Below, one piece after another: positions 812 to 16,484 of a stretch of DNA of 64,000 nt. The stretch spans positions 157 to 64,156 of the forward strand of contig LCCV01000005.1 in NCBI GenBank assembly GCA_000998135.1, read 5' to 3'. The position numbers were made by a program, and so were the translations under genes. The stretch is from Parcubacteria group bacterium GW2011_GWA2_42_14 (GTDB taxonomy: Bacteria; Patescibacteriota; Minisyncoccia; Sungbacterales; GWA2-42-14). A model generated the notes under the pieces. That model did not search any database, was not told the DNA's origin, and saw only the letters and a program-made list of their open reading frames with translations. Within the stretch, counting starts at the first letter, position 1; the number at the start of each line of letters is the position of its first letter.

Positions 812-814
812 ACA

Positions 815-1657: not shown

Positions 1658-3564
1658 GGTTGTATTTGTAAATTAGGATTTATTGCAATGACCCATGGGT
1701 CTTTTAATTCTATGGAGAGATATGCTTTTCCTGAGTCATCCAAAGAAAAATCGCAATATCCGGTATCTATCTTAATTATTTTAGTCCCACGTTCACCGAC
1801 AGCATCCGCAAGACCAAGTAATTCGCCCTCTCCCTCTTCCGCACGACCAAATAACTTCATTCGTACGACAGGATTCCCCTGAATTTTATCAGCGTGTATT
1901 AAAAAACGATACATTCGACCACTTGCAGTTGTACCCCCCACGACATAGCGCACAACCGCGTTTTCTAATTCTTTAGGCCTAATAACCGTACCTTCCGTAT
2001 CAGGTATAGTGGGAATTTCAACGGACTCATGCGGTCCTGAGGGTACCAGAGTAGGAACATCATCGGGAATTATCGGTCGCACAGGAACATAACGCTTCAC
2101 TCTAATTGGTTTTATGGTGTGAGTAGGCACAATGTTATCGTCCGGATCTTCCGAACCTATTTCAATTCCCGTTTCTTCCTCGACCGGTTCTTTCACGGGA
2201 TTGCTAGCAACTCCCGTCTGAGGTAAAATTCCGTCTGATTTCGGTACTCCAATATAGTCTGTAAGACCCGGGATAGTTGTTGATTGCTGAATTGGTGAAT
2301 ATAAAAGACCGCTTAATCCCTCGGCAATGAAAAGCTCAAGTTCCTGAGAAGCAGTTTTTCCATCCTCAACATAATGTCCGTGTTCATCTTTCCAATTGTG
2401 CCAATCCCATTCATTATGAGCGGGGTTTTCCAGCTTCCGGAGTATCTCACTTCCTTTTTTATTCCTACACTCAAAAACAGCAGCATACTTTGCTAAATGA
2501 AACGCCCTCCCCCTGAAATCAACAATCATTCCGGTATTTCTAATAAGCGCTGTCTTATTAGGGTATGGTAGTTCATCTGAGGTTCTACCGTAAAAAGAAA
2601 TTTCTCTAAGCATATCGGGGGTTTCCGATAATTTTTTTTCAGAATTAGTGTATGTATCAAAAAAATGTAGAGGATTATAAGGTTTATGAGATCTCTTTTC
2701 GTCTACTGCAAAAAATTCACTCATACGTTCACGAAGATTAGCGGCATCAAATTCTTTATCATCTACTCTTACCGTAAGTATTCCCCAATGTATTGCGGGC
2801 CAAAACCACCCCAAAACCGCCCGGCAGATTTCCTCTTTCCAATCAGTGCTTCCCTGATAATTAACAACCCAAATATCAGTTCCCTTTTCTTGCCTCTTTT
2901 TAAATATTTCCGGAATTTCTTTTTTATTCTTGATAGGTAACTGCCTTGGAAGACCGTATGTACCATTACCTTGCATTAATTCACCGTCCTGGTTAAAGGA
3001 TAGCAGCCGCAATTTTCCGGCAAACTTAATCCCTTCATCGGTAACCGTAGAAACGAATATAGTTCTAAAAAGCGAATTTGCAAAAAAAGCTCCCTTCCCT
3101 AATCCAAAAGCACCACCTGCCCAGGCTTCACCGGCATTAAATCCAACACCACGCATAAACATAAACCAACGCCCATCTTCAGTATCGCCGGTTAAACCGC
3201 AAGTATTGTAATCCGAAATCCGTAATAACGAAACGGAAATACCGCTTTTTAAAATATCTGCCTGAGCACGATAATGCTTTGCCGCATGAAGTACTCCTCT
3301 TTTCTCGGCATAATCGGCACATTTTCTGAATATTTTTTCTAACCGTTCCGGATTGGGTAATTCCCTTATAGGAAAATTTTCTAGATCAAATTCTGCTCTG
3401 ACCGGATTTTTACCGGGCAATTTTGCGTCAATAATATTTTGGATAGCTTCCCTTATTAGACTATCGGTTAAATTTTCTTCATATGCAAAATTTGCCGCAA
3501 CCGGGTCATTAAACCCCGCGACGTCTCCACCATCTGTTTTGCCAAAATGATAATCGGTTGTCAT
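1654..3564 (-). CDS. GHKL/Bergerat-fold ATPase (HATPase_c; MORC/MutL/Hsp90-like), 636 aa
   Basis: N-box EAIQNIIDA, G1 box DYNTCGLTGD and G2 box GAFGLGKGAFF sit in the correct order for a Bergerat ATP-binding fold. The C-terminal roughly 350 aa has no recognised domain. Confidence 0.75.
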   Translation of the reverse strand: MTTDYHFGKTDGGDVAGFNDPVAANFAYEENLTDSLIREAIQNIIDAKLPGKNPVRAEFDLENFPIRELPNPERLEKIFRKCADYAEKRGVLHAAKHYRAQADILKSGISVSLLRISDYNTCGLTGDTEDGRWFMFMRGVGFNAGEAWAGGAFGLGKGAFFANSLFRTIFVSTVTDEGIKFAGKLRLLSFNQDGELMQGNGTYGLPRQLPIKNKKEIPEIFKKRQEKGTDIWVVNYQGSTDWKEEICRAVLGWFWPAIHWGILTVRVDDKEFDAANLRERMSEFFAVDEKRSHKPYNPLHFFDTYTNSEKKLSETPDMLREISFYGRTSDELPYPNKTALIRNTGMIVDFRGRAFHLAKYAAVFECRNKKGSEILRKLENPAHNEWDWHNWKDEHGHYVEDGKTASQELELFIAEGLSGLLYSPIQQSTTIPGLTDYIGVPKSDGILPQTGVASNPVKEPVEEETGIEIGSEDPDDNIVPTHTIKPIRVKRYVPVRPIIPDDVPTLVPSGPHESVEIPTIPDTEGTVIRPKELENAVVRYVVGGTTASGRMYRFLIHADKIQGNPVVRMKLFGRAEEGEGELLGLADAVGERGTKIIKIDTGYCDFSLDDSGKAYLSIELKDPWVIAINPNLQIQP

Positions 3565-3991: not shown

Positions 3992-4429
3992 TTAATTGAG
4001 GGCCTTTTTAATTTTCTTAATAACGTCTTCCGGATACTTTTTTATCCCGTGTTCCCAAACAATAAGAGGTTTCCATCCGAAGTGCTTAATTTTTCGCAAA
4101 ACGGCTATATCCCTCTTTTTATTCCCGTTTATTTTCTCTCGCCAAAATTTTACATTGGTTTTAGGAATTGATCTATGTAGCTTACATCCGTGCCAAAAAC
4201 ACCCATGAACAAAAATCACAACCCGCTGCTTCGGAAAAATAAAATCGGGACGAACATTGAATATTTTTTGATGACGCCGCCAATGAGAAATCCCTTCTTT
4301 GCGAAAAAATCTTACGAGATTTAATTCGGTTGTTACATTACCGCTGCTATGTATAGCCGCCATATTCCGTGAACGTTGTTTGATATTTATTCGATCAACC
4401 ATGAATAGTTTTGATAATATTTTTTGCAA
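3992..4429 (-). CDS. vsr: Very-short-patch-repair endonuclease Vsr
   Basis: RSRNMAAI, RPDFIF and FVHGCFWHGC motifs match Vsr (E. coli has RSKNMRAI and FTHGCFWHHH). Overlaps the upstream dcm by 35 nt, as in classic dcm-vsr pairs. Confidence 0.9.
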   Translation of the reverse strand: MQKILSKLFMVDRINIKQRSRNMAAIHSSGNVTTELNLVRFFRKEGISHWRRHQKIFNVRPDFIFPKQRVVIFVHGCFWHGCKLHRSIPKTNVKFWREKINGNKKRDIAVLRKIKHFGWKPLIVWEHGIKKYPEDVIKKIKKALN

Positions 4430-5408
4430 TTGCCTCGATTACGGACACCGCAACACTGTTACCAAGCTGTTTCATTTTCTGAGAATAAGATAGATTGCCG
4501 GGAAAAATAAAATTTGACGGAAAACCCATCATTGTTTTTGCTTCTTCAACCGTTAATACATGCGGTTTATTGTTAACCAAATACGTATCCCAATTTCGTC
4601 TGTCCCTAAACCAAGACCCATCAGGATTCTTTCTGAAAGGCGATTTTCTTCCCCCGACGCGTATCGTTGACCCTATTATAGCAGGCCATCTTTTTCCAAA
4701 AATCTGTCTTAGGGTTACACCCCGCGGAGTCGTCGAGGATGGAAACCTAAAACTATTGGCCTTTCTTAAATCCTTTCTAAATGCGACAAGATAAAATCTT
4801 GGTCGATGAGTGGGCAGTCCGAAAGCGCTTGCCCTCAAAATTTCCCAATTAAAACCCCTTTCAGGCCTTACATCGTAACCGGCACCATCCAACTTATCCA
4901 GGATTACAACGAGCGTTTTATTGTCGTTGTGACTGACGATATTTCTTACGTTTTCCAAAAAAATAACCTTTGGTTTTCGCGCCCTAACTATTCTTTCTAT
5001 ATCATTAAACATTGTCCCTCTTACATCATCAAACCCCTTTTGTTTTCCAACCTGACTAAACGGCTGACATGGAAAACCGGCGCAAAGAATATCGAAGTTC
5101 GGAATAATTTCCCCAATATTTCTTTTCCAAATATATTTAGGTTCGTTTGTATCGGTGCGAGTTATTTGCTTAATATCCTTCCAAAAGAACGATTCTCTCT
5201 CGTCATCTATAAATAAGGTCGGGTCGACTTTTTTGAAATAATTTTTATAAGTTTCTTTGGCACATTTATTAAATTCATTCACAAAAACACACTTTCCGCC
5301 AAGCCTATGAAGAGCTAAATGAAAACCGCCTATTCCGGCAAATAAGTCGATAAAAGTGAATTTTGATTTTTTAGCACCCATTTCTCTATGTATGTTTAAC
5401 CTTAACAT
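4395..5408 (-). CDS. dcm: DNA cytosine-5 methyltransferase (Dcm-type m5C MTase)
   Basis: Motif I FIDLFAGIGGF, motif IV GFPCQPFS and motif VI ENV are present. Confidence 0.9.
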   Translation of the reverse strand: MLRLNIHREMGAKKSKFTFIDLFAGIGGFHLALHRLGGKCVFVNEFNKCAKETYKNYFKKVDPTLFIDDERESFFWKDIKQITRTDTNEPKYIWKRNIGEIIPNFDILCAGFPCQPFSQVGKQKGFDDVRGTMFNDIERIVRARKPKVIFLENVRNIVSHNDNKTLVVILDKLDGAGYDVRPERGFNWEILRASAFGLPTHRPRFYLVAFRKDLRKANSFRFPSSTTPRGVTLRQIFGKRWPAIIGSTIRVGGRKSPFRKNPDGSWFRDRRNWDTYLVNNKPHVLTVEEAKTMMGFPSNFIFPGNLSYSQKMKQLGNSVAVSVIEAIAKNIIKTIHG

Positions 5409-5437
5409 TTATAAAATAACATAAAACCGCTTAATCT

Positions 5438-5464
5438 TAAAGCCGCTGATCATCAGCGGTTTTA
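5438..5464 (-). terminator. Rho-independent terminator hairpin between the nuclease gene and dcm
   Basis: aaagCCGCTGATcATCAGCGGtttt forms an 8-bp stem with T/A tracts on both sides. Confidence 0.6.
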
Positions 5465-5496
5465 AGAAGGTTTGATAGTAATTTTACTATTCCCGG

Positions 5497-6645
5497 CTAT
5501 TTAATGGCCTGCTTAAACCCAAGAATCGCCGATTTAAAGAGTTCAATAGATTTTTTATCCGGAAAGGCCTCTTGAAACGTCATGTTCTTTCCGGGGAAAT
5601 CGCTGATACGAGACCCTCTCTTCCCTTCTCTAATTTCCTTGTCTGTACGTGCATACCATTTTTTTATTGCCGGCAGCTTCAATAATTTTTCACGCAATAA
5701 TTGGGATAATCGTTCGCCATCTTTTCCTGGAATTTCGTTTGTAATCCTCCAAAAACCTATTTTAAAACGGCCGTCGCTTTTCAAACTAACAATGCGTAAA
5801 AACCCGCTTTTTGCTTTGGGGTATTCGAGTCTAAGATAAGTGCGACCCAAATCGTGACCCGTTCCGTAACCCGGCTCCGCCAGTTCCGTGCGGCCGAATT
5901 CATAAAGATCAAGGATTGCATTCGAAAGTTCCTTGTCCTTAACCTCTTTTATTTTCTGGCGGAAAAAATCGTCATTTTGTTTATTGGGCCGGTATCCGCC
6001 CGCGATGTCTTTTTTTACCTCAGCACCGTATAGCTTGGGAATCAATATTTCATAGTCCTCGTGCTTATAATATTCAAATTCAACTGCAAAAAGATCAAAA
6101 CGGCTGTTTTCATTGATGAAAAGAATAAGGTTTTTCAATTGGTCATCAACTTTATCGAGAAGCACCACGAACCGATAATTTCCCTTGCTTAAGTTTTGCC
6201 GAACGTTTTCCAAAAGCAATGCGGCATCTTCGTCCTCAATACCGAAGAATTCTTTAACCAGTTGAACGGTATTCTGCTTAAATTTTTCCTGAACTTTTGC
6301 ATCAAGTTCCCGCATGAATTCGGTAAAATCCCCGTATGAGCGCCATAACGACGCACCATAATCAAGAACTTGTGCCACAATAGAACGCTTGTCCGAATTC
6401 CGGTAAAGCTTTGTTTCAATTAAGTAAACTTCACCATCTTTATCAATACCGAGGGCGTCGATTGGTCCGTGTTCTGTATAAAATTCTCTTGCAAGAATAA
6501 GAAGCTGGATATCCTTTTTAATATCGTAAACAGGGATGCTTTCAGGATTGTCATAAATATATTTCTGCAAATTTCCTTCTCGCTCAAATGTTGACTCGGG
6601 TACTGGTTTGGCATTTTTGCCGTTTTTTGAGATGATGATTGTCAT
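5497..6645 (-). CDS. PD-(D/E)xK-family nuclease, 382 aa; putative restriction endonuclease partner of the m5C MTase
   Basis: IDALGIDKDGEVYLIETKL contains a D...E-x-K catalytic core. Sits immediately upstream of dcm-vsr on the same strand. Confidence 0.55.
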   Translation of the reverse strand: MTIIISKNGKNAKPVPESTFEREGNLQKYIYDNPESIPVYDIKKDIQLLILAREFYTEHGPIDALGIDKDGEVYLIETKLYRNSDKRSIVAQVLDYGASLWRSYGDFTEFMRELDAKVQEKFKQNTVQLVKEFFGIEDEDAALLLENVRQNLSKGNYRFVVLLDKVDDQLKNLILFINENSRFDLFAVEFEYYKHEDYEILIPKLYGAEVKKDIAGGYRPNKQNDDFFRQKIKEVKDKELSNAILDLYEFGRTELAEPGYGTGHDLGRTYLRLEYPKAKSGFLRIVSLKSDGRFKIGFWRITNEIPGKDGERLSQLLREKLLKLPAIKKWYARTDKEIREGKRGSRISDFPGKNMTFQEAFPDKKSIELFKSAILGFKQAIK

Positions 6646-7295
6646 AGGTTTTTATGACGACGGGAAACACAAAGCCCCGCGCCAGCTAGGTCTTGCGACC
6701 CCATACCGGTTTCCCGATATGGCCCATCAAAGAGTTGCTGAACGCGGGGTTCAGTATCTTCATCGGGTCTTTATGCCATGCCCGGCGGTATGAACCGAAG
6801 GGTTTAGGACAATTAAATTGTTATCGTTATAACGACTATATCAAAAATGCCCGTTTCAATCAATTTTCTGTCCATTTCATAGCATAAATACTTGCTTTTG
6901 CGAAGGATCGAGTTATCAACAGCGGCTATTTGCAAACTCTTGATTTATTCAAAATAATTTGCTATTATGAAAATAATTGAATAGAAATCTTAGCGGCTGT
7001 CTCTAGTCTATAAAGATTATCAGATAGCTGTGTCGGCTAGACCGCCTAAGGTTTTATCAGCAATGCTATTTTGTATTGCTGTTGAAACTTTGGGCGGTTT
7101 TTATTTTTCGCCCCTTCGCCGCCACGGTCAACGGCGAAATGTAACCAAAGGAGAATATTGCTTATGAAATAAAACGCGTGCCATGAGTACGCAAAACGAA
7201 AATACTAAAAAACTCAGATATTAATAACGGAAACGGCTTATCCTAGAAAGGTTCAGTATAGAAACTTTCTTTGGTGAGCCGTTCCCTAAATTAAG

Positions 7296-8642
7296 ATGTT
7301 AGAAATTGATAGTGAAAAACAGCTTAAAATTACTTATGTTCCGGTGGATTCCCTCCAGCCTTCCGAGTACAATCCGCGCTCATGGAGCAAAGATGCCGCC
7401 GGGCAATTGAAAGAGAGTATAACCAGATATGGAATGGTGGACCCCATTTTGGTAAACTCCGCACCCGAAAGGAACGGCGTACTTATCGGAGGGCATTTCC
7501 GATGGGCAATGGCAAAGGAACTTGGGATAACAGAAGTACCAGTTGTCTATCTTAATATTCCTGACCTTGAAAAAGAGAAGGAACTTAATTTAAGGCTGAA
7601 CCGCAATCAAGGCGAATGGAATCTTGAACTTCTCGCTGAATTTGATGAAAAATTGCTCGCCGATATAGGTTTTAGTTCCGAAGAGATTGATGAAATATTT
7701 GGAATTGAGGAGAATCCGGAAATGTTTGATCTGGAAAAGGAATTAAAAAAACTGTCGATTGATAAAGTTGACGTGCAGAAAGGCGACGTCTATAAAATCG
7801 GAGAACATCGCGTCATGTGCGGAGATTCCACGATTGAAACGGATATGCTCAAACTCATGGCTGGAGAAAAAGCCGATATGTGCTTCACAGACCCGCCATA
7901 TTTACTCTCATATTTGACCGGAAAGAAGCGACATGGAAAAGCAACTGAAGGATTCGGGTTAAAACGCGACCGCCGGTATCTAGAAACAGATGTTTTGCCG
8001 GATAACTTCACGGAACTCTGGATGACAAATATTGCCAAGATTCAAAAACCGGATTTTTCAATCATCGTGTTTGAGAATCCTAAGAATTTGCGGACTATCT
8101 GGAACGAACTTGAAAAGTATTGGCGCTGGCGCAATACAATCATCTGGCACTTACCAAATCGCGTCTCCGGTTTCTCAGCAAAATACAAGTTCTTTAACAA
8201 ACACGATATTGCCCTCGTCGGCACCGACGGGAATCCATCATTAAATTTGGAACCGGAATCGGATGAATTATTTCAAAACGAGTATGAGAACGCATTATAC
8301 GCAACTTCCGGAAAACCGCACTGGGAGGGCTATGAGAAAGGAAAAAAGATCTGCCCTACGGATTTTATTGAGCACATTGCGGCTGATGAAAAATCCAGCG
8401 GCCAAGGAATAATATTCGGCACGAAGCCGATTGAACTCCTTATCCCATACATCAAGGTTCTCACGAAACGCGGAGATCTTATAGTAGAACCTTTCGGCGG
8501 ATCGGGATCTATGCTGGTTGCGGCAGAAAAGTTGAAACGACGGTGCTTTCTGATGGAAAAAAGTCCGATCTACACAGCCGTCATATTAAACCGAGTTGAA
8601 AAAATTATTGGCATAAAAGGAGAAAAAATCAATGAGGGATAA
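7296..8642 (+). CDS. ParB-like nuclease domain fused to an N6-adenine/N4-cytosine DNA methyltransferase (beta-class)
   Basis: N-terminal ParB/Srx signature (YNPRSW ... GGHFRWAMAKELG). Motif IV DPPY (CFTDPPYLL) precedes motif I (VEPFGGSGS) at the C-terminus. Confidence 0.85.
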   Translation: MLEIDSEKQLKITYVPVDSLQPSEYNPRSWSKDAAGQLKESITRYGMVDPILVNSAPERNGVLIGGHFRWAMAKELGITEVPVVYLNIPDLEKEKELNLRLNRNQGEWNLELLAEFDEKLLADIGFSSEEIDEIFGIEENPEMFDLEKELKKLSIDKVDVQKGDVYKIGEHRVMCGDSTIETDMLKLMAGEKADMCFTDPPYLLSYLTGKKRHGKATEGFGLKRDRRYLETDVLPDNFTELWMTNIAKIQKPDFSIIVFENPKNLRTIWNELEKYWRWRNTIIWHLPNRVSGFSAKYKFFNKHDIALVGTDGNPSLNLEPESDELFQNEYENALYATSGKPHWEGYEKGKKICPTDFIEHIAADEKSSGQGIIFGTKPIELLIPYIKVLTKRGDLIVEPFGGSGSMLVAAEKLKRRCFLMEKSPIYTAVILNRVEKIIGIKGEKINEG

Positions 8643-9201
8643 AATAGAGGAAAAGCTAAAAATACTTGAAACGCTGAAAACAACGCCGGTGATTAGTGTG
8701 GCGTGCGCTAAGGCGGGCTTGGCGCGCGCCACAATCTATCGCTGGCTTAACGACGATATTGACTTCGAAAAACAAGTTCAACAGGCCATGAGATCCGGCG
8801 CTAAGAATATTAACGACTTGGCGTATGCAAAACTGATCCAGAAAATCAACGAAGGCAGTCTGGGAGCCACTACTTTTTACCTCTCACACCGGCATCCTTT
8901 ATTCAAAAAGAAAGAAAAATTTAAAGTGGAAGTGACACAGAAAAATTCTCCGATCTATGACATTCCCGAAAGTGCGTTTAACGAAGTTTTAATCAGTAAA
9001 CTCCCGAAAAAACTCAGAAAGCAAGTAGTAAGAAAAGCAATAAGGATACACGAGATAGTGCGACAAGCCATCGAGAAAGCGCGCAAGGAGCGCCCGTACT
9101 TGGGACCCAAAAACCCGTCATCAAAGTATTGTCTACAAGATACGCTGCCGTGGGGGTTAATTCTTAAGAGCGTTCTTGAAGAAGAAAAGGGGAAGAAATA
9201 G
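8632..9201 (+). CDS. HTH DNA-binding protein (terminase-small-subunit-like or transposase-HTH-like)
   Basis: PVISVACAKAGLARATIYRWLNDD reads as a helix-turn-helix. The start overlaps the MTase stop by 11 nt. Confidence 0.5.
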   Translation: MRDKIEEKLKILETLKTTPVISVACAKAGLARATIYRWLNDDIDFEKQVQQAMRSGAKNINDLAYAKLIQKINEGSLGATTFYLSHRHPLFKKKEKFKVEVTQKNSPIYDIPESAFNEVLISKLPKKLRKQVVRKAIRIHEIVRQAIEKARKERPYLGPKNPSSKYCLQDTLPWGLILKSVLEEEKGKK

Positions 9202-9303
9202 TTATCAACTGCTTGGTTTGAGGGGGTCTGGACTCACAGGAGGGGTTGCGTCATCAATGTCCTTGTCGAAAGGTTATTAAATAACTAAGTAAAACAAGGG
9301 CTT

Positions 9304-10647
9304 ATGAAACAATCAACAACAACCCCTCCTGACGCCTTGGGGAAAATGACGGCAGAAATAACTGTCATGGCGCCGCAGATGCGCTACTGTCTTTATGCGC
9401 GGAAGAGTACCGCCGAGGAGGACCGGCAGGCTCTTTCCATAGAATCGCAGGTAAAAGAAATGCTTGCGATGGCGGAACGCGAACGACTTCACGTGGTCGA
9501 AGTGAAGCGCGAATCGCACTCATCTAAAGAAGCTGGCCAGCGGCCAATCTTCAATCAGATGATCGCCGAGATCAAAGAGGAAAAGTACAACGGGGTGCTC
9601 GCGTGGGCACCAGACCGGCTTTCGAGAAATGCAGGAGACCTGGGTTCGGTGGTCGATCTGATGGACCAGAAGTTACTGGTTGAGATCAGAACTTACGGCC
9701 AGCGATTTACAAATAACCCGAACGAGAAATTTCTTTTGATGATTCTCGGCTCGCAGGCAAAATTGGAAAACGATCAAAAGGGCGTGAACGTAAAACGCGG
9801 GCTAAGAGCCAGATGCGAGATGGGTCTATGGCCTGCTCCGGCACCAACCGGATACCTCAACGACAAGAGCCGGGACAAAAAATGCCATATCATTATAGAT
9901 CCAAAACGCGGACCGGTTATAAAGCAAATGTATGAAAAAGTTGCGAATGAAAGTTGGAGCGGTAAACGGCTGTATCACTGGCTAAAAGATACAAAATTTA
10001 CATCCGTCTACGGCAAACCACTAACATTGAGTAATGTATATTTGATATTAAAAAATACCTTATATTATGGAGTGTTCGAATATCCGAAAAAAAGCGGAAA
10101 CTTGTACACCGGCATCCATCAGCCGCTTATAACAAAAGAGATTTTTGAAAAAGTGCAAACGCAGATCAAGAGAAGCAAGATCTTAAGCCCTTATGGTGGC
10201 AAGGAATTCGCCTTCACGCGGCTTATCTCATGCGGAAATTGCGGAACGACGCTGGGCGCGGATGAGAAATTGAAGAAACTCAAAAACGGGCACATAAATA
10301 GACATGTGTATTATAGCTGTACGAAACGATGGTCAAGAGATTGCAAAAGCGGATTCATCAACGAGCCCGAATTAATTGGACAGCTTATGGCCATCATCGA
10401 CACGGTTAAACTCGACAAAACCGGCATTAGGGAAAAACTTGATGGCGAGATCAGTCGCTATCGAAAATTCCAATCTGGTGTTCTCGGCATCAAAGAGATA
10501 CACGACCAAAAATCCAAGGACTTGGACATCCGGAATTATGCGAAATACATCTTCAAAGAAGGAGCAATCTATGAAAAACGCGAACTGCTATCGTGCTTGA
10601 GAAGCAAACTGATATTCAAAGATAAAAAACTTTCGCTCGAAGCATAA
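9304..10647 (+). CDS. Large serine recombinase (resolvase/invertase N-domain, recombinase domain, zinc ribbon)
   Basis: YARKSTAEEDRQALSIESQ matches the catalytic motif of serine recombinases. A CGNCGTT ... YYSC zinc-ribbon-like region lies in the C-terminal half. Confidence 0.85.
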   Translation: MKQSTTTPPDALGKMTAEITVMAPQMRYCLYARKSTAEEDRQALSIESQVKEMLAMAERERLHVVEVKRESHSSKEAGQRPIFNQMIAEIKEEKYNGVLAWAPDRLSRNAGDLGSVVDLMDQKLLVEIRTYGQRFTNNPNEKFLLMILGSQAKLENDQKGVNVKRGLRARCEMGLWPAPAPTGYLNDKSRDKKCHIIIDPKRGPVIKQMYEKVANESWSGKRLYHWLKDTKFTSVYGKPLTLSNVYLILKNTLYYGVFEYPKKSGNLYTGIHQPLITKEIFEKVQTQIKRSKILSPYGGKEFAFTRLISCGNCGTTLGADEKLKKLKNGHINRHVYYSCTKRWSRDCKSGFINEPELIGQLMAIIDTVKLDKTGIREKLDGEISRYRKFQSGVLGIKEIHDQKSKDLDIRNYAKYIFKEGAIYEKRELLSCLRSKLIFKDKKLSLEA

Positions 10648-10694: not shown

Positions 10695-13600
10695 CTACTT
10701 TTTATGAGGGGGCAAAACATTAGTATAAGTTTTTCCAACCAATTTGCCATCTACTTTCATCCTAAACGCACCACCCATTTCCAATCTCCCAAGGAAACCT
10801 TCTCCACTACCCATAGTTCCTAGTAAGAGTTTTTCTCCAATAACCGCCCAAATTATCTCGTAGCCATTCTTTTTTAGAAACTCAATCAAGGGTTTCTTTT
10901 TGATAATCAACGCTCCCGAACCTGCATCAGCCACTGAAGGGTCTTGTGCCACCACCTCACCTTTTTTATTGATGAATTTACCAGACTCTTTGCTCTGGTG
11001 AATATTCATCCCCTTAATTAACTCCTTTGCTGGTATGTGAATGGCTAACCCCTCTTCTAGTGAGCAATCAAAGCCGCTTCCTTCCCAATGGTATTCTTCT
11101 GTAGTCTTAATTACATTAAATGGCGTAATCTTTCGTTCCTTATCCTCAACTTTTATCCAACGCTTTTTATTGGAGACATTGTACTCGTTTTGGTATGCAA
11201 TAGAGTTTGGAATTTCTCTTAGAAAGAGACTACGCAACTCCAGCGGGTCAGGCATCCATCTACCCATAAAATCTTGTTTCTTTGCCCAGGCGAACATCCT
11301 ATTAACTTCTTTTTTCTTAACAATGTAACTACGCAATATATACCAAACATCACGCCTGATTTTATCGAATTTCTCCTCACCAGGAACGGGAGGCTGTTCC
11401 CACCGTACATAACCGTCCAAAAGCAACCATCCGCCTTTCGATTTAATTTCTATTAGATTTTTTTGAGTTGGTAAATCATTTTTAACTTTTGTCCATTGAG
11501 TATGGTTAAGTGAGGGACGCCAATGCTTATAAACAGCACTAATCCACCAGGGTTTTTTTGCCGATGAATCAATCGGGGTCTTATGCAAAAGACAAGATGG
11601 GTCAATGTCCCGCTCACACATTTGCCAAGTCCCCTGGTAGGGTTCAAAGGTGTCTCTCCAAGCACCTCTATAGACAAAGTTATCAGCAATTCTTCCCAAT
11701 ACCTCGTGGAAAGCTATCCATTGATACTTTTTACCAATACGCTCGCTTTTATGAGCATCTCTACCCATTTCTCTAACTGTTGAATCATATTTGGCAAATA
11801 GCTTCGGTCTCCAACCTAATTGGACGATTCTTTGAAATATGAGTCGTTGAATCTCTGCATCATTCAAGTCATCACTACCTTTAGGATTTTCACGATAAGG
11901 GAGAACACCTTTCTTGTATAGTTTTTGTTGCACATCGCTTAAAGTCTCAATAAAAACTTTCTCAAGATTTTTAACAAAAGTTTCCGCTTCTTTCAGCTGC
12001 TCTTTCATGAACTTATTTTCTGGTAATTGGTCTCCTTCTCTTCTTGGAAAATCTGTCATCCTTAATTGCCAGTCAGTGGATTGACGCATACTTTCAATTT
12101 TTTTCCACCTCTTTTTTTCTATTCGATTTAGACTGGTATTAAATTCCGCATCTATTTCCTTAATGGTTTTCTTTCTTTTTCCATTTTTTGATAATCTCAA
12201 GTTGCACCAATGGTTTAGAGTTGAACCCACAACATAATTCCCGAAGTCAGCAATACCTCCTTCATTGTTATACATCAATGAATACCAGATAGCGCCGTAG
12301 TCTCCATTTTTCCTTTTGCGACCACTTCCTTTTGGATACTTTTTCTTTAAATCGGCTAGAGTTGGCACTACTGTTGGAAATGAACTCCCGTATGGTGGTC
12401 TGATTCTTCGTATATCAATCTTATTTTTTAGTGTAGCATCCTGGGAAATCGCAAGCTCCATAATGCCGCGCGCATAGTCTCGTAATAAAATATGAGTGGG
12501 CGGCTTTCTGTCTTTGAAAATATTATTGTATGTGTAAAGTGCAAGCGTAGAAACATCCTCTCTTTTGTTTTCAGGCTGCAAAACACAACCGTAAGCTGCT
12601 GCATAAAGTCGTTCTTGTATGTAGGGGTCATCAACTCCTTTAAAGTCCTCTAACACCTTCAAAAGCACGGGGATTCTCCCGTTCAGCATTGATACCAACG
12701 CTTTCGTTGCTCTATCCCTCAAGAATCTATTTGAACTCGCTAAAAACCAAGCCAAAGTAACGCCAGCTAATCTCAACGAATCATTTTGTATCGTGCTTTT
12801 GTCTCCTCCGTCCCACGACCAAGTAAGAAGACGATTTATTGCGCCCTCATCACCATATCGGCTATTTATAAAAGGCAACCAAAACGCATCGCGTTGCGGC
12901 ATTTTCTTTTTTGCCAAATGCCTATGAAGTAACTTTGCATTTAACGGGTGGCTGGGTATGGCAGAAACAGTGATTAAGGTCTCCAAAATTTTTTCGTTGC
13001 CACCGTAATAAGGCAAGATGTATTTATTCAAATAATTTAAAATCCGTCTCTGGTTGATGTATTTTGTTTTCCCTTTTTTTAGCGATAAATCTCTCCAAAT
13101 GAGGCTTTCTAAAAAACTATCTTTCGCAATCTCTTGATAACGAAACTTATTTGGAGCCACATAAACTAATTCTCTACCGCGCAATCTCTCTGGCACTTGG
13201 ATGGATAAAGCCTCAATAAGTCCGCGGTTCCATTGTTCGCCGATAATATTGCCCAACCTTGTTCCTTTTTTTAACGACTGTTTTGGAAGAGTTGTGTTTA
13301 AATGTTTTGTTAAAAGATTCCTTACAATTAGATGGTCGCTGAATTTCTGATATGGAAATCTATAATCAAAGCCGATAATCTTATACTTTTTATAACGAGG
13401 AACTTTAGTTATTAACCAATATTTCTCTAAAAACCACAACACCTTTTTTCCTTTAGATGGGAACTGTTTTGCGGCAATTGATACCGCTTGCTTTTCTGGT
13501 ATCCTGTCAGTTCCATTTTCGCCCATATAAAGTGCGAGTTCTTTTATAGTTCCGTTCCAAATTCTTCTAACGCTTTCTCCTGATTCTCCTAATTTTTTTA

Positions 13601-14837
13601 GAACTGCATCGCCTTGAGTAATAACATATTTCTCGAAGATGTGAGTAAATCCTCGATGCCCCTTTATTGGCTCTGGTGATTTGGCAGATGCCTCACAAAA
13701 AATTTTCAAAAATAGAGGTATACGAAATTCTGGAAATAGGATAGGTACTTCGGGAAGGGGCAGTTTATATTCTGTAAAAAATTTTGTTAAAGCCTCCCAT
13801 TCGTGAGTGGCAAAACCCTCGTGTTCGACTCTTACATAACTTTTTAGTACAGATAGCGGGAGTTCACTCTGCTCAAAACCAGAACGAATACTCAAAATTA
13901 CACCAAGATTTTTGTACCTACTAATTAAATTAAATTGTTCCCAATGAACACCGAATACCTGGCTTTCATTTACGGCATCAACCACAATAATTGCCCTCGT
14001 GCGTTTTGCACCAGCGTAATCATTTAGAGCTTGGATGAATGTTTTATTTGATGTATTTATTGCTAACAGATTTTTAGCCGTACCCCACGGATTTTTAGAG
14101 TTATTAAATTCTTCACCAAGAAATATGAAAGTGGGTAACCCGTGGCTTATCCTGTATTTTGATAGGTCGCATAGAAAATGAGTCTTTCCTGAACCAGCTA
14201 TGCCGTTTAAAAGAACGCGGGGATTATTGGCAGCCAAAGCTGTATTACTTTTTGAGAAATCTATTAAGGAACTTAAAACACTGCCAATTTTGTATAAGTG
14301 ATGTTTTTCGTTTCTAAACTTTTCGTCCTCAATATATGTTATTCTCTCTCCCTTTTTCGGCTTGTTAATCGGATTTTCTTGTTCTTTTTTCTTTCTATTC
14401 TCCTCTTCGTTTTCTCGTAATAAGTGTGTACATTTATAGGCGGCTTCTTTTGCATTGTTGCTTATCGAATATATTTTCTTAAAATCTATTTTCGCTACGC
14501 CGCTATGCGGAATTTTCAATAAAAAGTTCACCACTTCTAGAAAGTGGCGTTTTACTTTTTCAAATTCTTTTGGAGCTACCTTGCTCACTTCTTCGTCTTT
14601 GATGCTCCTAAGATTTTTGATTATCTCATTAGCTGGGCTTTTTAATTCCTCATAAAACTTCGCTGTTCTTCCGAGACCATCGAATACTGAAGCAATGCTT
14701 ACCTCGACATTGAGTTTTGGAGTATATCTAGCTCCAGCAAGAGAGATAGCAACAGAAAGTCGTTTCTCTTGTGTGCTTTTATAGAGTTTTTTTTGTGAGA
14801 TTTTTTTCATAGTTTTATTATACAGCGCGCTCGACAA
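10695..14837 (-). CDS. Large (1380 aa) P-loop NTPase, STAND/NACHT-like; candidate defence NTPase
   Basis: Walker A GIAGSGKTH at about aa 210 and Walker B AIIVVDAVNES. The roughly 850-aa C-terminal region has no recognised motif. Confidence 0.55.
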   Translation of the reverse strand: MSSALYNKTMKKISQKKLYKSTQEKRLSVAISLAGARYTPKLNVEVSIASVFDGLGRTAKFYEELKSPANEIIKNLRSIKDEEVSKVAPKEFEKVKRHFLEVVNFLLKIPHSGVAKIDFKKIYSISNNAKEAAYKCTHLLRENEEENRKKKEQENPINKPKKGERITYIEDEKFRNEKHHLYKIGSVLSSLIDFSKSNTALAANNPRVLLNGIAGSGKTHFLCDLSKYRISHGLPTFIFLGEEFNNSKNPWGTAKNLLAINTSNKTFIQALNDYAGAKRTRAIIVVDAVNESQVFGVHWEQFNLISRYKNLGVILSIRSGFEQSELPLSVLKSYVRVEHEGFATHEWEALTKFFTEYKLPLPEVPILFPEFRIPLFLKIFCEASAKSPEPIKGHRGFTHIFEKYVITQGDAVLKKLGESGESVRRIWNGTIKELALYMGENGTDRIPEKQAVSIAAKQFPSKGKKVLWFLEKYWLITKVPRYKKYKIIGFDYRFPYQKFSDHLIVRNLLTKHLNTTLPKQSLKKGTRLGNIIGEQWNRGLIEALSIQVPERLRGRELVYVAPNKFRYQEIAKDSFLESLIWRDLSLKKGKTKYINQRRILNYLNKYILPYYGGNEKILETLITVSAIPSHPLNAKLLHRHLAKKKMPQRDAFWLPFINSRYGDEGAINRLLTWSWDGGDKSTIQNDSLRLAGVTLAWFLASSNRFLRDRATKALVSMLNGRIPVLLKVLEDFKGVDDPYIQERLYAAAYGCVLQPENKREDVSTLALYTYNNIFKDRKPPTHILLRDYARGIMELAISQDATLKNKIDIRRIRPPYGSSFPTVVPTLADLKKKYPKGSGRKRKNGDYGAIWYSLMYNNEGGIADFGNYVVGSTLNHWCNLRLSKNGKRKKTIKEIDAEFNTSLNRIEKKRWKKIESMRQSTDWQLRMTDFPRREGDQLPENKFMKEQLKEAETFVKNLEKVFIETLSDVQQKLYKKGVLPYRENPKGSDDLNDAEIQRLIFQRIVQLGWRPKLFAKYDSTVREMGRDAHKSERIGKKYQWIAFHEVLGRIADNFVYRGAWRDTFEPYQGTWQMCERDIDPSCLLHKTPIDSSAKKPWWISAVYKHWRPSLNHTQWTKVKNDLPTQKNLIEIKSKGGWLLLDGYVRWEQPPVPGEEKFDKIRRDVWYILRSYIVKKKEVNRMFAWAKKQDFMGRWMPDPLELRSLFLREIPNSIAYQNEYNVSNKKRWIKVEDKERKITPFNVIKTTEEYHWEGSGFDCSLEEGLAIHIPAKELIKGMNIHQSKESGKFINKKGEVVAQDPSVADAGSGALIIKKKPLIEFLKKNGYEIIWAVIGEKLLLGTMGSGEGFLGRLEMGGAFRMKVDGKLVGKTYTNVLPPHKK

Positions 14838-14898
14838 ATATCCAATAAACCTTATTCACAAAAACGAAAAGCCGCTGATTTCTCAGCGGACTTTTCGT

Positions 14899-14954
14899 TC
14901 TTGAATACGGCGCTCCCTCCTTCGCTAAAGCTACGGCGGGCACAGCAGCCGGTA
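14899..14954. repeat. Direct repeat copy 1 (TCTTGAATACGGCGCTCC ... GGGCACAGCAGCCGGTA) after a hairpin
   Basis: 18/18 and 17/17 identical blocks shared with 16204-16257. The interior is partly similar. Confidence 0.8.
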
Positions 14955-15093
14955 CTGCAGCTTTATCGGGGTTATTCACTAAATACTCAATTTTTAAAGG
15001 GTTACTTTTTGACCGATCTTTTTGATTTGACTTTTAAATCGCAATCTCATATAATCTAATATATCAACTATATAAGATTCGATAAGCTAAATT

Positions 15094-16146
15094 ATGAACC
15101 GGCTTAATACACGTATCAAAAAACTCCCCTACTCTATACTTGATCTTATCAATAAGATCGATGAACTGAAAGGCCAATGGGTGGGAGGTGCTAAATTAAA
15201 TCCACAAGCGCTCGGGCGGCTCAAGCATTCAACCTTGATTACATCAACGGGTGCTTCGACACGCATCGAGGGCGCACAGCTTTCCGATGAGGATGTGGAA
15301 AAACTGATGCGAGGACTTTCCATGCAAAAATTCGCCGACCGCGACAAGCAGGAGGCGAAAGGATATTACGAGTTGCTTGAAAATGTTTTTGCCGCATGGC
15401 AGAAGATACCGTTTTCTGAAAGTACCATCAAGCATCTGCACCGTGAACTGCTGAAATACGTAAAAAAAGATGATACCCATCGCGGAGAATATAAAAAGAT
15501 GGAAAACAAGGTAGTAATGCTCGATGAGGCCGGTAAACCGACTGCAACCCTTTTTGAGACAACGCCGACATATCTTACGCCAAAGGAAATGTTGGAACTT
15601 AGCGAATGGACCCGCGATGCACTGGCTATACGCGAATTCCATCCTCTGCTTGTCATCGGAAATTTTATCGTAGAGTTTCTGAACATCCACCCATTTCAGG
15701 ATGGCAACGGGCGGCTTTCCCGAATTCTGACAAATCTTCTCTTGCTCCAGCACGGATACACATATATGCCGTATGTCTCTCATGAAAAACTTATTGAAGA
15801 TAATAAGGCAGACTACTATGTAGTACTACGCAGAAGCCAGAAAACGTTTAAGACCGATTCCGAAAATGTGTCTCCCTGGATGGAGTTCTTCTTGAACATT
15901 CTTTTGTCACAGTCAAAACTCGCGATTGAGCTGCTTTCGCAAGAAAACATAGAACGCCTTCTTTCGCCGAAACAGCTTGCTGTATGGCAATACGTTGAAG
16001 GCGTTATTGAGGCAACACCGGGAAAAATCTCTAAAGCCACAAAGGTCGCCCGCCCAACGGTTTCCCAAGCGCTTGACGCACTCCTGCGCCTTAAAAAAGT
16101 GGAACGGATCGGGCAGGGGCGGACAACGAGATATAGAAAGATCTGA
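15094..16146 (+). CDS. fic: Fic/Doc-family protein (AMPylase-type) with C-terminal winged HTH
   Basis: Canonical Fic motif HPFQDGNGRLSR. Confidence 0.9.
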   Translation: MNRLNTRIKKLPYSILDLINKIDELKGQWVGGAKLNPQALGRLKHSTLITSTGASTRIEGAQLSDEDVEKLMRGLSMQKFADRDKQEAKGYYELLENVFAAWQKIPFSESTIKHLHRELLKYVKKDDTHRGEYKKMENKVVMLDEAGKPTATLFETTPTYLTPKEMLELSEWTRDALAIREFHPLLVIGNFIVEFLNIHPFQDGNGRLSRILTNLLLLQHGYTYMPYVSHEKLIEDNKADYYVVLRRSQKTFKTDSENVSPWMEFFLNILLSQSKLAIELLSQENIERLLSPKQLAVWQYVEGVIEATPGKISKATKVARPTVSQALDALLRLKKVERIGQGRTTRYRKI

Positions 16147-16177
16147 AGTCTTTCCCGGCAGATGCGGAAACAAAAAT

Positions 16178-16202
16178 TCACCCGGAAATGGGTGAATTTT
16201 TG
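16178..16202 (+). terminator. Rho-independent terminator of fic
   Basis: TCACCCggaaatGGGTGA followed by ATTTTT. Confidence 0.6.
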
Positions 16203-16203
16203 C

Positions 16204-16257
16204 TCTTGAATACGGCGCTCCTCCGCACAAGGCTGCGGACGGGCACAGCAGCCGGTA
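16204..16257. repeat. Direct repeat copy 2
   Basis: See copy 1. Lies immediately after the fic terminator. Confidence 0.8.
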
Positions 16258-16408
16258 TGACGTGGACTGTAACGAGTTTTCTTTGTAACTCCCCTGAGGC
16301 CCGAAACACTAGCTTTTTTAATGAGCGGTTCGAATCCGTGACGGGTCGAACTTTGACTCATTCAAAAAAGTGACGTGTTATGGGTCTCGGTAGGGGGTCG
16401 CAAGGACA

Positions 16409-16479
16409 CTGGGGGACAGGGATTCGAACCCCGATACCTGCCTCCAAAGGGCAGTGTCCTACCGTTAGACGATCCCCCA
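16409..16479 (-). tRNA. tRNA-Gln (anticodon TTG)
   Basis: The reverse complement reads TGGGGGATCGTCTAACGGTAGGACACTGCCCTTTGGAGGCAGGTATCGGGGTTCGAATCCCTGTCCCCCAG. It has a 7-bp acceptor stem, the anticodon loop CTTTGGA and the T-loop GTTCGAATC. CCA is not encoded. Confidence 0.8.
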
Positions 16480-16484
16480 ATAAC

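What the first reader, a model, noticed from the sequence alone, without database searches (positions are those of the whole stretch)
10695..14837. 1380-aa P-loop NTPase next to the recombinase: candidate STAND-like anti-phage NTPase
This is a single giant ORF. Its roughly 200-aa helical N-terminal region is followed by Walker A GIAGSGKTH and Walker B AIIVVDAVNES, then an 850-aa C-terminal region with no recognisable repeats. Size and domain order resemble defence STAND/NACHT or BrxC-like NTPases, but the BREX partner genes PglX and PglZ are absent. It lies between the serine recombinase and a Fic gene inside the putative island.
Basis: partly seen in the sequence, partly recalled or inferred. 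Interest (0 to 1): 0.7.

Follow-up and report, generated by a model that had tools for sequence, protein, structure and literature searches.

The report
Effector-less Avs2 phage sensor, CPR bacterium
The giant ORF is a member of the known Avs2 family of bacterial NLR-like phage-terminase sensors, but it belongs to a conserved short clade, found mostly in ultra-small CPR bacteria, that lacks the killing domain all studied Avs2 proteins need, so how it stops phage is open.

Summary
The ORF is real (10695-14837, minus strand; likely ATG start at 14810, 1371 aa). It is an Avs2 (AVAST type 2) antiviral STAND NTPase. It scores 1173 bits on the NCBIfam Avs2 equivalog (cutoff 1000), 1207 bits on PADLOC Avs2, and E=1e-171 against the EcAvs2 cryo-EM structure 9o4e.

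The window protein aligns to EcAvs2 residues 173-1479, so it has no N-terminal effector domain. Its roughly 195-aa helical N-terminus is the Avs2 'helical extension', which is part of the terminase pocket. This is not a truncation. Short forms make up at least 39 clusters at 50% identity, fall outside the single clade holding all long forms, keep invariant Walker motifs, and are under purifying selection (pN 0.12, pS saturated).

In reference genomes, 16 of 25 short-form loci are CPR/Patescibacteria and none of 46 long-form loci is. Short forms lie near large serine recombinases (12/25 vs 2/46) and have no conserved partner gene.

The window gene sits in a roughly 16-kb defence island (PDC-M33, RM+Vsr, Avs2, SoFic) next to tRNA-Gln in a Parcubacteria genome. 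The sensing step is inferred by homology. The output step is unknown, and I favour direct terminase neutralisation.

The parts
10695..14810 (-). Avs2 (AVAST type 2) coding sequence, short effector-less form, 1371 aa from ATG 14810 (the annotated TTG start at 14837 gives 1380 aa)
   Evidence: ORF. NCBIfam NF041813 Avs2 equivalog, 1173 bits against a cutoff of 1000. PADLOC Avs2 PDLC02164, 1207 bits. PDB 9o4e EcAvs2, E=9.6e-172, aa 17-1362 aligned to 173-1479.
14226..14810 (-). aa 1-195: all-helical 'helical extension' (in EcAvs2 it lies between the effector and the ATPase and contacts terminase); no effector domain precedes it
   Evidence: AF2 model, pLDDT 90.6, helices only up to aa 195. Aligns to EcAvs2 173-340. 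Domain role from PMC13601566.
14178..14204 (-). Walker A / P-loop GIAGSGKTH (aa 203-211)
   Evidence: invariant G203, G206, G208, K209, T210, H211
13962..13994 (-). Walker B AIIVVDAVNES (aa 273-283)
   Evidence: invariant D278, N281, E282
10695..13130 (-). approx. aa 561-1371: TPR-like alpha-helical domain plus beta-rich C-terminal sensor (boundaries approximate, by homology). Holds the counterparts of the EcAvs2 terminase and bridging-ATP contacts: D855, R1017, F1148, E1243, E1326, E1344
   Evidence: Alignments to 9o4e. Contact residues from PMC13601566 section 8. Positions verified.
14817..14844 (-). promoter-like site TGGATA-16-TATAAT; the -10 box ends 7 nt before ATG 14810 (own promoter, very short or no leader)
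   Evidence: consensus match only
14872..14889 (.). GC-rich hairpin with T-runs on both strands, upstream of the Avs2 promoter; insulates Avs2 from the divergent Fic gene; part of the repeated element 14860-14985
9304..10647 (+). large serine recombinase/integrase, convergent with Avs2 (48-bp gap); the only gene family recurrently linked to short-form Avs2
   Evidence: Pfam Resolvase+Recombinase+Zn_ribbon_recom. PHROG integrase E=1e-62. Present near 12/25 short vs 2/46 long loci, Fisher p=2e-5.
8632..9201 (+). HTH / small-terminase-like protein of the mobile module
   Evidence: Pfam HTH_Tnp_1_2, weak Sf6_terminase. PHROG terminase small subunit E=2e-7. Homologue in L024/L083.
7296..8642 (+). 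ParB_N-N6/N4 DNA methyltransferase of the mobile module
   Evidence: homologue in L024/L083
15094..16146 (+). SoFic-like Fic-domain defence gene, divergent from Avs2 (island context, not shown to be a partner)
   Evidence: PADLOC SoFic E=4.2e-42. Pfam Fic. Intact motif HPFQDGNGRLSR.
16408..16480 (-). tRNA-Gln(UUG) at the right edge of the island

Best explanation
The gene encodes an Avs2-family antiviral STAND NTPase, a bacterial NLR-like pattern-recognition receptor. By homology to EcAvs2, its helical extension, TPR-like domain and beta-rich C-terminal sensor form a pocket. That pocket binds the ATPase domain of a phage large terminase together with ATP, and binding drives ATP-dependent tetramerisation through the central NTPase. 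The protein belongs to a distinct, conserved, effector-less clade that starts directly at the helical extension. It has no Mrr-like nuclease or other N-terminal effector and no conserved partner gene. The clade occurs mainly in CPR/Patescibacteria and travels on small islands linked to serine recombinases. My favoured output step is inferred and not shown: binding and oligomerisation themselves neutralise terminase (1:1 sequestration, with the active site capped and the nuclease domain partly unfolded), which would block DNA packaging without host suicide. My estimates are about 0.95 for family identity, 0.7 for terminase sensing, and 0.4 for the sequestration output.
For: Identity: NCBIfam Avs2 equivalog above cutoff, PADLOC Avs2, 9o4e E=1e-171 over aa 17-1362.

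No effector: the alignment starts at EcAvs2 residue 173. Short forms have 20-29 aa before the RYTP motif, against 185-233 aa in long forms. The AF2 model shows only helices before the P-loop fold. A stop codon and a promoter lie just upstream.

Functional, not decayed: Walker A/B residues are invariant. pN is 0.12 against a saturated pS of 0.81 in all four regions. At least 39 short-form clusters at 50% identity were found.

Sensor pocket retained: D981->D855, R1132->R1017, E1362->E1243, E1444->E1326 and E1462->E1344 are identical, and W1266->F1148 is conservative.

No partner: neighbour clustering of 25 short-form loci finds only serine recombinases recurring. A profile of the long-form nuclease domain finds nothing in the six-frame window or in the short-form flanks. 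Tightly adjacent genes belong to unrelated systems.

Binding as inhibition: in the EcAvs2 complex the terminase active site is sealed by a bridging ATP and the nuclease domain is partly unfolded (PMC13601566).

Defence context: PDC-M33, RM+Vsr and SoFic lie in the same 16 kb.
Against: In every Avs tested experimentally, deleting or mutating the effector abolished cell death or defence (PMC13581612; PMC11564622), so an effector-less protein has no demonstrated way to defend. Stoichiometric sequestration needs Avs2 levels comparable to terminase levels, and neither is known. Three of nine EcAvs2 contact residues differ (T1128->E1014, R1130->M1015, E1364->G1246). KpAvs2 also senses non-terminase proteins, so the ligand could differ. 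No CPR phage terminase was tested. The CPR enrichment is not corrected for phylogeny and comes from loci ranked by similarity to a CPR query.
Confidence: 0.45

Rival explanations
1. Same Avs2 terminase sensor, but it works as a 'sensor-only' NLR. After oligomerising it activates an effector encoded elsewhere in the genome or by variable neighbouring genes, giving classical abortive infection.
For: There are precedents for trans-acting components in Avs2 systems: Avs2-trypsin-MBL (abstract) and the KpAvs2 accessory genes Avap1/2. Sensor/helper NLR pairs in plants and NAIP-NLRC4 in animals are established knowledge, and the NTPase model resembles NAIP5-NLRC4 among others. Some loci have tightly linked genes of unknown function (520 aa overlapping the Avs2 stop, plus 812 aa, in L106/L107) or a NERD nuclease-related gene upstream (L005).
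Against: No neighbour family other than recombinases recurs across 25 short-form loci. No free-standing homologue of the long-form nuclease domain was found. The short form also lacks the protease or adaptor domain through which known trans effectors are activated.
Confidence: 0.3
2. The protein serves the mobile element rather than the host. The element, built around a serine recombinase and carrying a TerS-like gene, would use an unarmed terminase sensor to detect or interfere with a co-infecting or helper phage's packaging machinery (satellite-like interference), or to trigger its own excision.
For: There is a strong association with large serine recombinases (12/25 vs 2/46, p=2e-5). The ParB-MTase / TerS-like HTH / integrase module recurs next to short-form Avs2 in three CPR genomes, in arrangements that are circular permutations of one another. 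A 17-nt inverted repeat brackets the block.
Against: No capsid, portal or other packaging genes are in the window. No short-form relative was found in viral contigs. Defence genes are commonly cargo of mobile elements, so linkage alone is expected. The TerS-like hits are weak (E about 1e-5 to 1e-7). Half of the short-form loci have no recombinase within 8 kb.
Confidence: 0.1
3. A disarmed relic: an Avs2 that lost its toxic nuclease domain and is now non-functional or on its way to decay.
For: Loss of a toxic effector is an easy route to relieve autoimmunity. No output mechanism is evident.
Against: The ORFs are intact at 1320-1395 aa in at least 39 divergent clusters. All short forms fall outside the single clade of long forms, so this is not repeated sporadic truncation. 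pN/pS is about 0.15 with saturated pS in every region. Catalytic and ligand-contact residues are invariant. The gene has its own promoter.
Confidence: 0.05
4. A BrxC/PglY-like or housekeeping P-loop ATPase unrelated to Avs.
For: Size and P-loop position resemble BrxC superficially. Pfam gives only sub-threshold AAA_24/NACHT hits.
Against: PADLOC returns only Avs2 models, with no BrxC. The NCBIfam equivalog is passed. There is full-length homology to the EcAvs2 structure. No PglX or PglZ is in the window.
Confidence: 0.01

Closest known systems
EcAvs2 (E. coli AVAST type 2; PDB 9o4e; Evans et al., Nat Commun 2026, PMC13601566)
   Same: Homologous from the helical extension to the C-terminus (aa 17-1362 vs 173-1479, E=1e-171, about 30% identity). 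Same order of helical extension, STAND NTPase, TPR-like domain and beta-rich C-terminal sensor. Walker motifs are conserved, as are five of nine published terminase/bridging-ATP contact residues, with one further conservative change.
   Different: It lacks EcAvs2 residues 1-172, the N-terminal (uncharacterised, non-enzymatic-looking) effector. Three contact residues differ. The host is a CPR bacterium rather than a proteobacterium.
KpAvs2 and the majority 'long-form' Avs2 proteins with an N-terminal Mrr-like PD-(D/E)xK nuclease (Gao et al. 2022; Bechon et al. 2024, PMC11564622)
   Same: Same NTPase and sensor core. Long-form homologues at 30-37% identity align over the whole window protein.
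   Different: Long forms carry about 160-200 extra N-terminal residues with the motif GSQ..FEELCCQLA...PDxGVEC...WGWQAKFF. The nuclease is essential for their defence. The window protein and its clade have none, and KpAvs2's accessory genes (radical SAM, DUF6375) are absent.
Sensor-only NLRs that rely on helpers (NAIP-NLRC4 in animals; sensor/helper NLR pairs in plants)
   Same: A STAND NTPase with a ligand-binding C-terminal domain and no executioner domain of its own.
   Different: No helper STAND or other partner was found nearby. This resemblance is an analogy from general knowledge and is not homology-tested beyond the shared NTPase fold.
BREX BrxC/PglY
   Same: A large P-loop ATPase of more than 1200 aa found in defence islands.
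   Different: No sequence match, no BREX partner genes, and a different ATPase class.

Membership tests
Avs2 (AVAST type 2) | Full-length match to the curated family model above its trusted cutoff | tested here: met
   NCBIfam NF041813 (equivalog) 1173.2 bits vs cutoff 1000, aa 23-1352 on profile 2-1311/1317. PADLOC Avs2 PDLC02164 1207 bits.
Avs2 (AVAST type 2) | Central STAND-type P-loop NTPase with intact Walker A and Walker B | tested here: met
   GIAGSGKTH and AIIVVDAVNES; invariant K209, T210, D278, E282. AF2 P-loop fold from aa 198, with Avs4 (8dgf) as best structural match.
Avs2 (AVAST type 2) | Avs2-specific sensor: helical extension + TPR-like domain + beta-rich C-terminal sensor, homologous to EcAvs2 | tested here: met
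   phmmer vs PDB 9o4e E=9.6e-172 over aa 17-1362. C-terminal 551 aa alone give E=1.7e-63.
Avs2 (AVAST type 2) | Residues contacting terminase and the bridging ATP (EcAvs2 D981, T1128, R1130, R1132, W1266, E1362, E1364, E1444, E1462) | tested here: inconclusive
   Five identical (D855, R1017, E1243, E1326, E1344), one conservative (F1148), three different (E1014, M1015, G1246). The published single mutants were tolerated in EcAvs2, so this neither proves nor excludes terminase binding.
Avs2 (AVAST type 2) | N-terminal effector domain (tripartite effector-NTPase-sensor architecture) | tested here: not met
   The protein starts 27 aa before the RYTP motif, where long forms have 185-233 aa. The alignment starts at EcAvs2 residue 173. 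AF2 shows only the helical extension. There is no upstream coding space.
Avs2 (AVAST type 2) | Activation by phage large terminase, tetramerisation, and protection against phage | not testable with these tools
   This requires co-expression, biochemistry and plaque assays. No CPR phage terminase was available.
BREX (BrxC/PglY ATPase) | Match to BrxC/PglY models and presence of PglX and PglZ/BrxL partners | tested here: not met
   PADLOC gives only Avs2 hits for this protein. Neighbours scanned include no PglX or PglZ.
NACHT (Pfam PF05729) | Pfam NACHT domain above the gathering score | tested here: not met
   13.5 bits vs cutoff 26.7, E=0.066. The NTPase is STAND-like, but the Pfam model does not recognise it.
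Integrative island mobilised by a large serine recombinase | Recombinase gene plus identifiable att/terminal repeats and a variable presence among relatives | tested here: inconclusive
   The recombinase is present. Linkage is statistically enriched. A 17-nt inverted repeat at 6692-6708 / 16388-16404 brackets the block, but 1 of 100 shuffles gives as many matches. No empty site was recovered.

The most novel reading that the evidence does not exclude
Effector-less Avs2 proteins are a distinct class of prokaryotic NLR-like immunity. They protect without suicide, by stoichiometrically trapping and inactivating the phage large terminase. This mode would be favoured in ultra-small, episymbiotic CPR/DPANN cells and spread among them by serine-recombinase elements.
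Probability: 0.3. Interest if true: 0.75.

Novelty: new variant of a known kind. Interest (0 to 1): 0.42.

Why it matters
On its own the gene is an ordinary annotation upgrade: 'hypothetical protein' in a Parcubacteria MAG becomes Avs2. Two points go beyond that.

First, every Avs characterised so far depends on a fused effector. A conserved and diverse clade under purifying selection that has none, and has no linked partner, implies either an output mode not yet described for bacterial NLR-like proteins (for example non-abortive terminase trapping) or an unrecognised trans effector.

Second, CPR/Patescibacteria are thought to be poor in known defence systems beyond restriction-modification (my own knowledge). 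This window shows a dense island (PDC-M33, RM+Vsr, Avs2, SoFic). The short form is also the only Avs2 type seen in CPR genomes in this sample. That gives a concrete handle on phage defence in organisms that cannot yet be cultured alone.

Tried and rejected
1. BrxC/BREX: rejected, with no model hit and no partners.
2. Hidden N-terminal exon or mis-called start: rejected. There is an in-frame stop, with a promoter and hairpin immediately upstream, and only about 250 bp to the divergent Fic gene. Antisense ORFs within Fic have no family hits.
3. Cryptic enzymatic fold in aa 1-195: rejected. The AF2 model is all-helical and aligns to the EcAvs2 helical extension. Foldseek hits cover only the NTPase. 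That PDB library did not return 9o4e, so the structural match to EcAvs2 itself could not be scored.
4. Free-standing copy of the long-form nuclease domain: none found in the six-frame window or in the short-form flanks.
5. Conserved operon partner: none found by all-vs-all clustering of flanks. Tight neighbours belong to unrelated systems.
6. Fic/SoFic as the missing effector: considered, but a Fic homologue lies near a short form in only one other locus (L028, 26% identity) and the gene here is divergent and bracketed by its own repeats, so it was rejected as a dedicated partner.
7. Prophage origin: the rest of the window is housekeeping, and viral-contig relatives are all long forms at 31% identity or less.
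8. Pseudogene or relic: rejected on conservation.
9. Literature: no paper was found on effector-less Avs2 or on Avs in CPR. Gao et al. 2022 (PMC10028730) and the Avs2-trypsin-MBL preprint could not be opened, so I cannot exclude that short forms are mentioned there.
10. Second LOOT copy or a known RNA in the repeated element: no Rfam hit.
11. The NJ tree included one mistranslated sequence (L030, frameshift), which distorts the midpoint root. Only the unrooted split between short and long forms is used.


Full report
**Observation.** The window contains one uninterrupted ORF at 10695-14837 on the minus strand, 1380 aa from a TTG. The probable start is the ATG at 14810, giving 1371 aa. Homologues start within a few residues of it. 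A sigma-70-like promoter (TGGATA-16-TATAAT, 14844-14817) lies inside the TTG-extended reading frame, preceded by a GC-rich hairpin at 14872-14889. The gene is flanked by a large serine recombinase (9304-10647, +) and a Fic gene (15094-16146, +).

**Identity.** Pfam gives only sub-threshold AAA_24/NACHT hits, which explains the 'hypothetical protein' label. P0001, from Parcubacteria group bacterium GW2011_GWA2_42_14, is 100% identical. Defence-specific and curated libraries are unambiguous:
- PADLOC returns only Avs2 models. The best is PDLC02164, 1207 bits, aa 6-1365.
- The NCBIfam equivalog NF041813 'AVAST type 2 anti-phage system protein Avs2' scores 1173 bits against a cutoff of 1000.
- The protein matches the solved E. 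coli Avs2 structure 9o4e at E=9.6e-172, aligning aa 17-1362 to residues 173-1479.

The paper describing that structure (PMC13601566) gives the anatomy: an N-terminal effector, a helical extension, the STAND ATPase, an elaborate TPR domain and a beta-rich C-terminal sensor. The last three non-effector parts form a pocket that binds the ATPase domain of the phage large terminase with a 'bridging' ATP, in a flat C4 tetramer. The STAND/anti-phage interpretation is therefore supported. The BrxC alternative is not.

**The missing effector.** The alignment to EcAvs2 begins at residue 173, and the best PADLOC profile is matched only from position 168 of 1504. In an alignment of 30 homologues the lengths before the conserved RYTP motif are bimodal. 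There are 23-29 residues in the window protein and its relatives, against 185-233 in longer homologues. The N-termini of the longer homologues carry GSQ..FEELCCQLA...PDxGVEC...WGWQAKFF. I read this as the PD-(D/E)xK signature of the Mrr-like nuclease that the literature says most Avs2 proteins use (PMC13601566; PMC11564622). An AlphaFold2 model of aa 1-370 (pLDDT 90.6) shows only helices up to aa 195 and then the P-loop fold. Foldseek finds Avs4 (8dgf) and other STAND/AAA+ ATPases for the NTPase part and nothing enzymatic for the helical part.

**A clade, not an accident.** I examined 80 loci from one-genome-per-species reference genomes plus metagenomic loci, and extended each reading frame upstream. 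This gave 25 short forms, 46 long forms (+135 to +201 aa) and 3 cyanobacterial intermediates (+22 to +42 aa). A neighbour-joining tree of the trimmed cores puts all long and intermediate forms in one clade, with every short form outside it. That is consistent with a single gain or loss. The tree is unrooted in effect, and one mistranslated sequence was ignored. An exhaustive HMMER search of 1.84 billion representatives finds 1901 family members at E<=1e-30. Among the best 150 there are 39 short, 78 long and 6 intermediate. Against its 79%-identical relative, the window gene has pN=0.12 while pS=0.81 is saturated. The values are similar in the helical extension, the NTPase, the TPR region and the C-terminal sensor. 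Walker A/B residues and many sensor residues are invariant. A decaying remnant is excluded.

**Ligand pocket.** Of the nine EcAvs2 residues shown to contact terminase or the bridging ATP:
- five are identical: D981/D855, R1132/R1017, E1362/E1243, E1444/E1326, E1462/E1344;
- one is conservative: W1266/F1148;
- three differ: T1128/E1014, R1130/M1015, E1364/G1246.

At about 30% overall identity this favours a conserved pocket, but it does not prove terminase recognition. KpAvs2 is known to sense other phage proteins as well.

**Search for a partner.** All-vs-all clustering of ORFs within 8 kb of the 25 short and 46 long loci finds only one family enriched near short forms, the large serine recombinases. 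They occur at 12/25 short loci against 2/46 long loci (Fisher p=2e-5), and at 9/16 against 2/27 when both flanks are at least 5 kb. Further metagenomic relatives show the same link. A profile of the long-form nuclease domain finds no free-standing homologue in the six-frame-translated window or in the short-form flanks. Genes tightly adjacent on the same strand are a type II methyltransferase, a type III restriction enzyme, a PARIS/OLD-like ATPase, a YgjP peptidase, a VirD4-like ATPase, an aldo-keto reductase, or unknowns. None is shared between loci. The short form is therefore a stand-alone gene that lives in defence islands.

**Taxonomy.** Of the 25 short-form loci, 16 are CPR/Patescibacteria (Paceibacteria, Saccharimonadia, Roizmanbacteria, Levybacteria, Gracilibacteria, Peregrinibacteria) and one is DPANN. 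The rest are scattered: Methanosarcinales, Mariniplasma, Rickettsiales, Cloacimonadota, Thermoleophilia, Caldicellulosiruptor, and two unassigned metagenome contigs. None of the 46 long-form loci is labelled CPR. This is striking, but it is not corrected for shared ancestry or for ranking by similarity to a CPR query. No paper in the searchable library links Avs/AVAST to CPR or describes effector-less Avs2. Gao et al. 2022 could not be opened.

**Surroundings in the window.** The first roughly 16.5 kb form a defence island:
- a complete PADLOC candidate system PDC-M33A/B/C (83-3564);
- Vsr, a C5 methyltransferase and a probable restriction enzyme (3992-6645);
- a LOOT RNA (6688-6810);
- the module ParB-methyltransferase / TerS-like HTH / serine integrase (7296-10647);
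- Avs2;
- a SoFic-like Fic gene with an intact HPFQDGNGRLSR motif;
- tRNA-Gln (16408-16480).

Beyond that lie housekeeping genes: dnaX, SecA, MurB, PurD and others. There are no phage structural genes. Relatives in viral contigs are all long forms at 31% identity or less. The same three-gene mobile module sits next to short-form Avs2 in two other CPR genomes (L024, L083; integrase 51% identical while Avs2 is 35%), in an arrangement that is a circular permutation of the window's. GC content of the gene (38.2%) is close to that of the window (40.9%).

**Mechanism.** Family membership by homology, an intact NTPase, a largely conserved pocket, absence of an effector and of a linked partner, purifying selection, and mobile/defence context are all shown here. 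The following steps are inferred from EcAvs2: the protein binds a phage large-terminase ATPase domain plus ATP and tetramerises. The output step is unknown. In all tested Avs proteins the effector is required for toxicity, so this clade must work differently.

I favour direct neutralisation of terminase (about 0.4). In the EcAvs2 complex the terminase active site is capped by the bridging ATP and its nuclease domain is partly unfolded, so binding is itself inhibitory. In ultra-small cells with small bursts, 1:1 trapping is plausible. The main rival is an unlinked or variable trans effector (about 0.3). The other rivals are an element-serving role for the recombinase/TerS-like module (about 0.1), a non-functional relic (about 0.05 or less) and a non-Avs ATPase (about 0.01).

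**Verdict.** The gene is a recognisable member, by homology, of a well-studied family, which limits its novelty. The effector-less architecture, its conservation, its concentration in CPR genomes and its linkage to serine recombinases make it a variant worth an experiment. Overall interest is moderate (0.42).

Noticed in passing
window 15094-16146 (+): The Fic-domain gene divergent from Avs2 matches the PADLOC SoFic model (E=4e-42) and keeps the catalytic motif HPFQDGNGRLSR, with a C-terminal winged-helix-like region. It is a second known single-gene defence system beside Avs2. A distant Fic homologue (26% identity) also lies near the short-form Avs2 of a Levybacteria genome (L028).
   Followed up: partly
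window 14860-14985 and 16165-16290: Two copies of a roughly 95-125-nt element (a GC-rich stem plus a strong rho-independent-type hairpin on the minus strand) bracket the SoFic gene. The exact shared cores are CTTGAATACGGCGCTCC and CGGGCACAGCAGCCGGTA. They occur only here in the 64 kb, fold with z=-5.3 and -4.3, and have no Rfam match. Two independent assemblies carrying the identical Avs2 (L103, L104) end exactly within this element, which suggests a repeat-induced break or variants with and without SoFic.
   Followed up: partly
window 6692-6708 (+) and 16388-16404 (-): A 17-nt inverted repeat, CTTGCGACCCC(A/C)TACCG, has one arm inside the 3' end of the LOOT RNA and the other just 3' of tRNA-Gln. 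It brackets the 9.7-kb block from ParB-MTase to SoFic. It could be serine-recombinase half-sites or inversion sites, or chance (1 of 100 shuffles gave two matches).
   Followed up: partly
window 6688-6810 (-): LOOT RNA (Rfam RF03000), 65.7 bits against a gathering score of 46.4, full length, lying between the putative restriction enzyme and the ParB-methyltransferase. Its function is unknown.
   Followed up: no
window 83-3564 (-): A complete three-gene PADLOC candidate defence system: PDC-M33A (1654-3564, E=7e-80), PDC-M33B (815-1657, E=2e-47) and PDC-M33C (83-811, E=5e-42; Pfam DUF6339), at the left edge of the window.
   Followed up: partly
window 3992-6645 (-): Vsr mismatch endonuclease (3992-4429), a C5 cytosine methyltransferase (4395-5408) and a 382-aa protein with no Pfam hit and weak PADLOC PDC-S11 hits (5497-6645). 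This is probably a type II restriction-modification system with its repair nickase.
   Followed up: partly
window 7296-10647 (+); L024 and L083: The module ParB_N-N6/N4 methyltransferase / TerS-like HTH protein / large serine integrase recurs beside short-form Avs2 in a Paceibacterota genome and a Saccharibacteria genome. There it is divergent from Avs2, whereas in the window it is convergent, so the gene orders are circular permutations of one four-gene set.
   Followed up: partly
L022, L029, L042 (cyanobacteria) and P0103 (Nostoc): 'Intermediate' Avs2 proteins have only a 25-40-aa N-terminal tail, with a conserved N[VA]GG[DN][LI]TV...TQ motif followed by a proline-rich linker. The motif is reminiscent of the short amyloid-like signalling motifs of NLRs that act through a separate effector (my recollection, not tested).
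   Followed up: no
L106 12101-16231 and L107 7193-11323: In one short-form sublineage (P0011, 54% identity), a 520-aa gene overlaps the Avs2 stop codon by 21 nt and is followed by an 812-aa gene, then a serine recombinase. Neither gene has a Pfam or PADLOC hit. They are possible lineage-specific partners.
   Followed up: partly
L005 5186-5830 (Caldicellulosiruptor sp. DIB 104C): A NERD (nuclease-related domain) gene lies 171 bp upstream of a short-form Avs2 on the same strand, with a BREX system (BrxA, BrxB, BrxC, PglX) immediately downstream.
   Followed up: no
window 21496-23916 (-): An 806-aa VirD4/TraG-like type IV coupling ATPase lies about 5 kb to the right of the island. A similar protein sits directly upstream of the short-form Avs2 in a Saccharibacteria genome (L069).
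   Followed up: no
window 37409-39019 (-): A 536-aa protein combines an AAA_18 P-loop domain with a weak QueC-like region. QueC-like proteins occur in some defence systems (my recollection).
   Followed up: no
window 14810-14837 (-): The public annotation (1380 aa) uses the TTG at 14837. Homologue alignment and the promoter position favour ATG 14810, which would leave a leaderless or very short-leader mRNA.
   Followed up: partly
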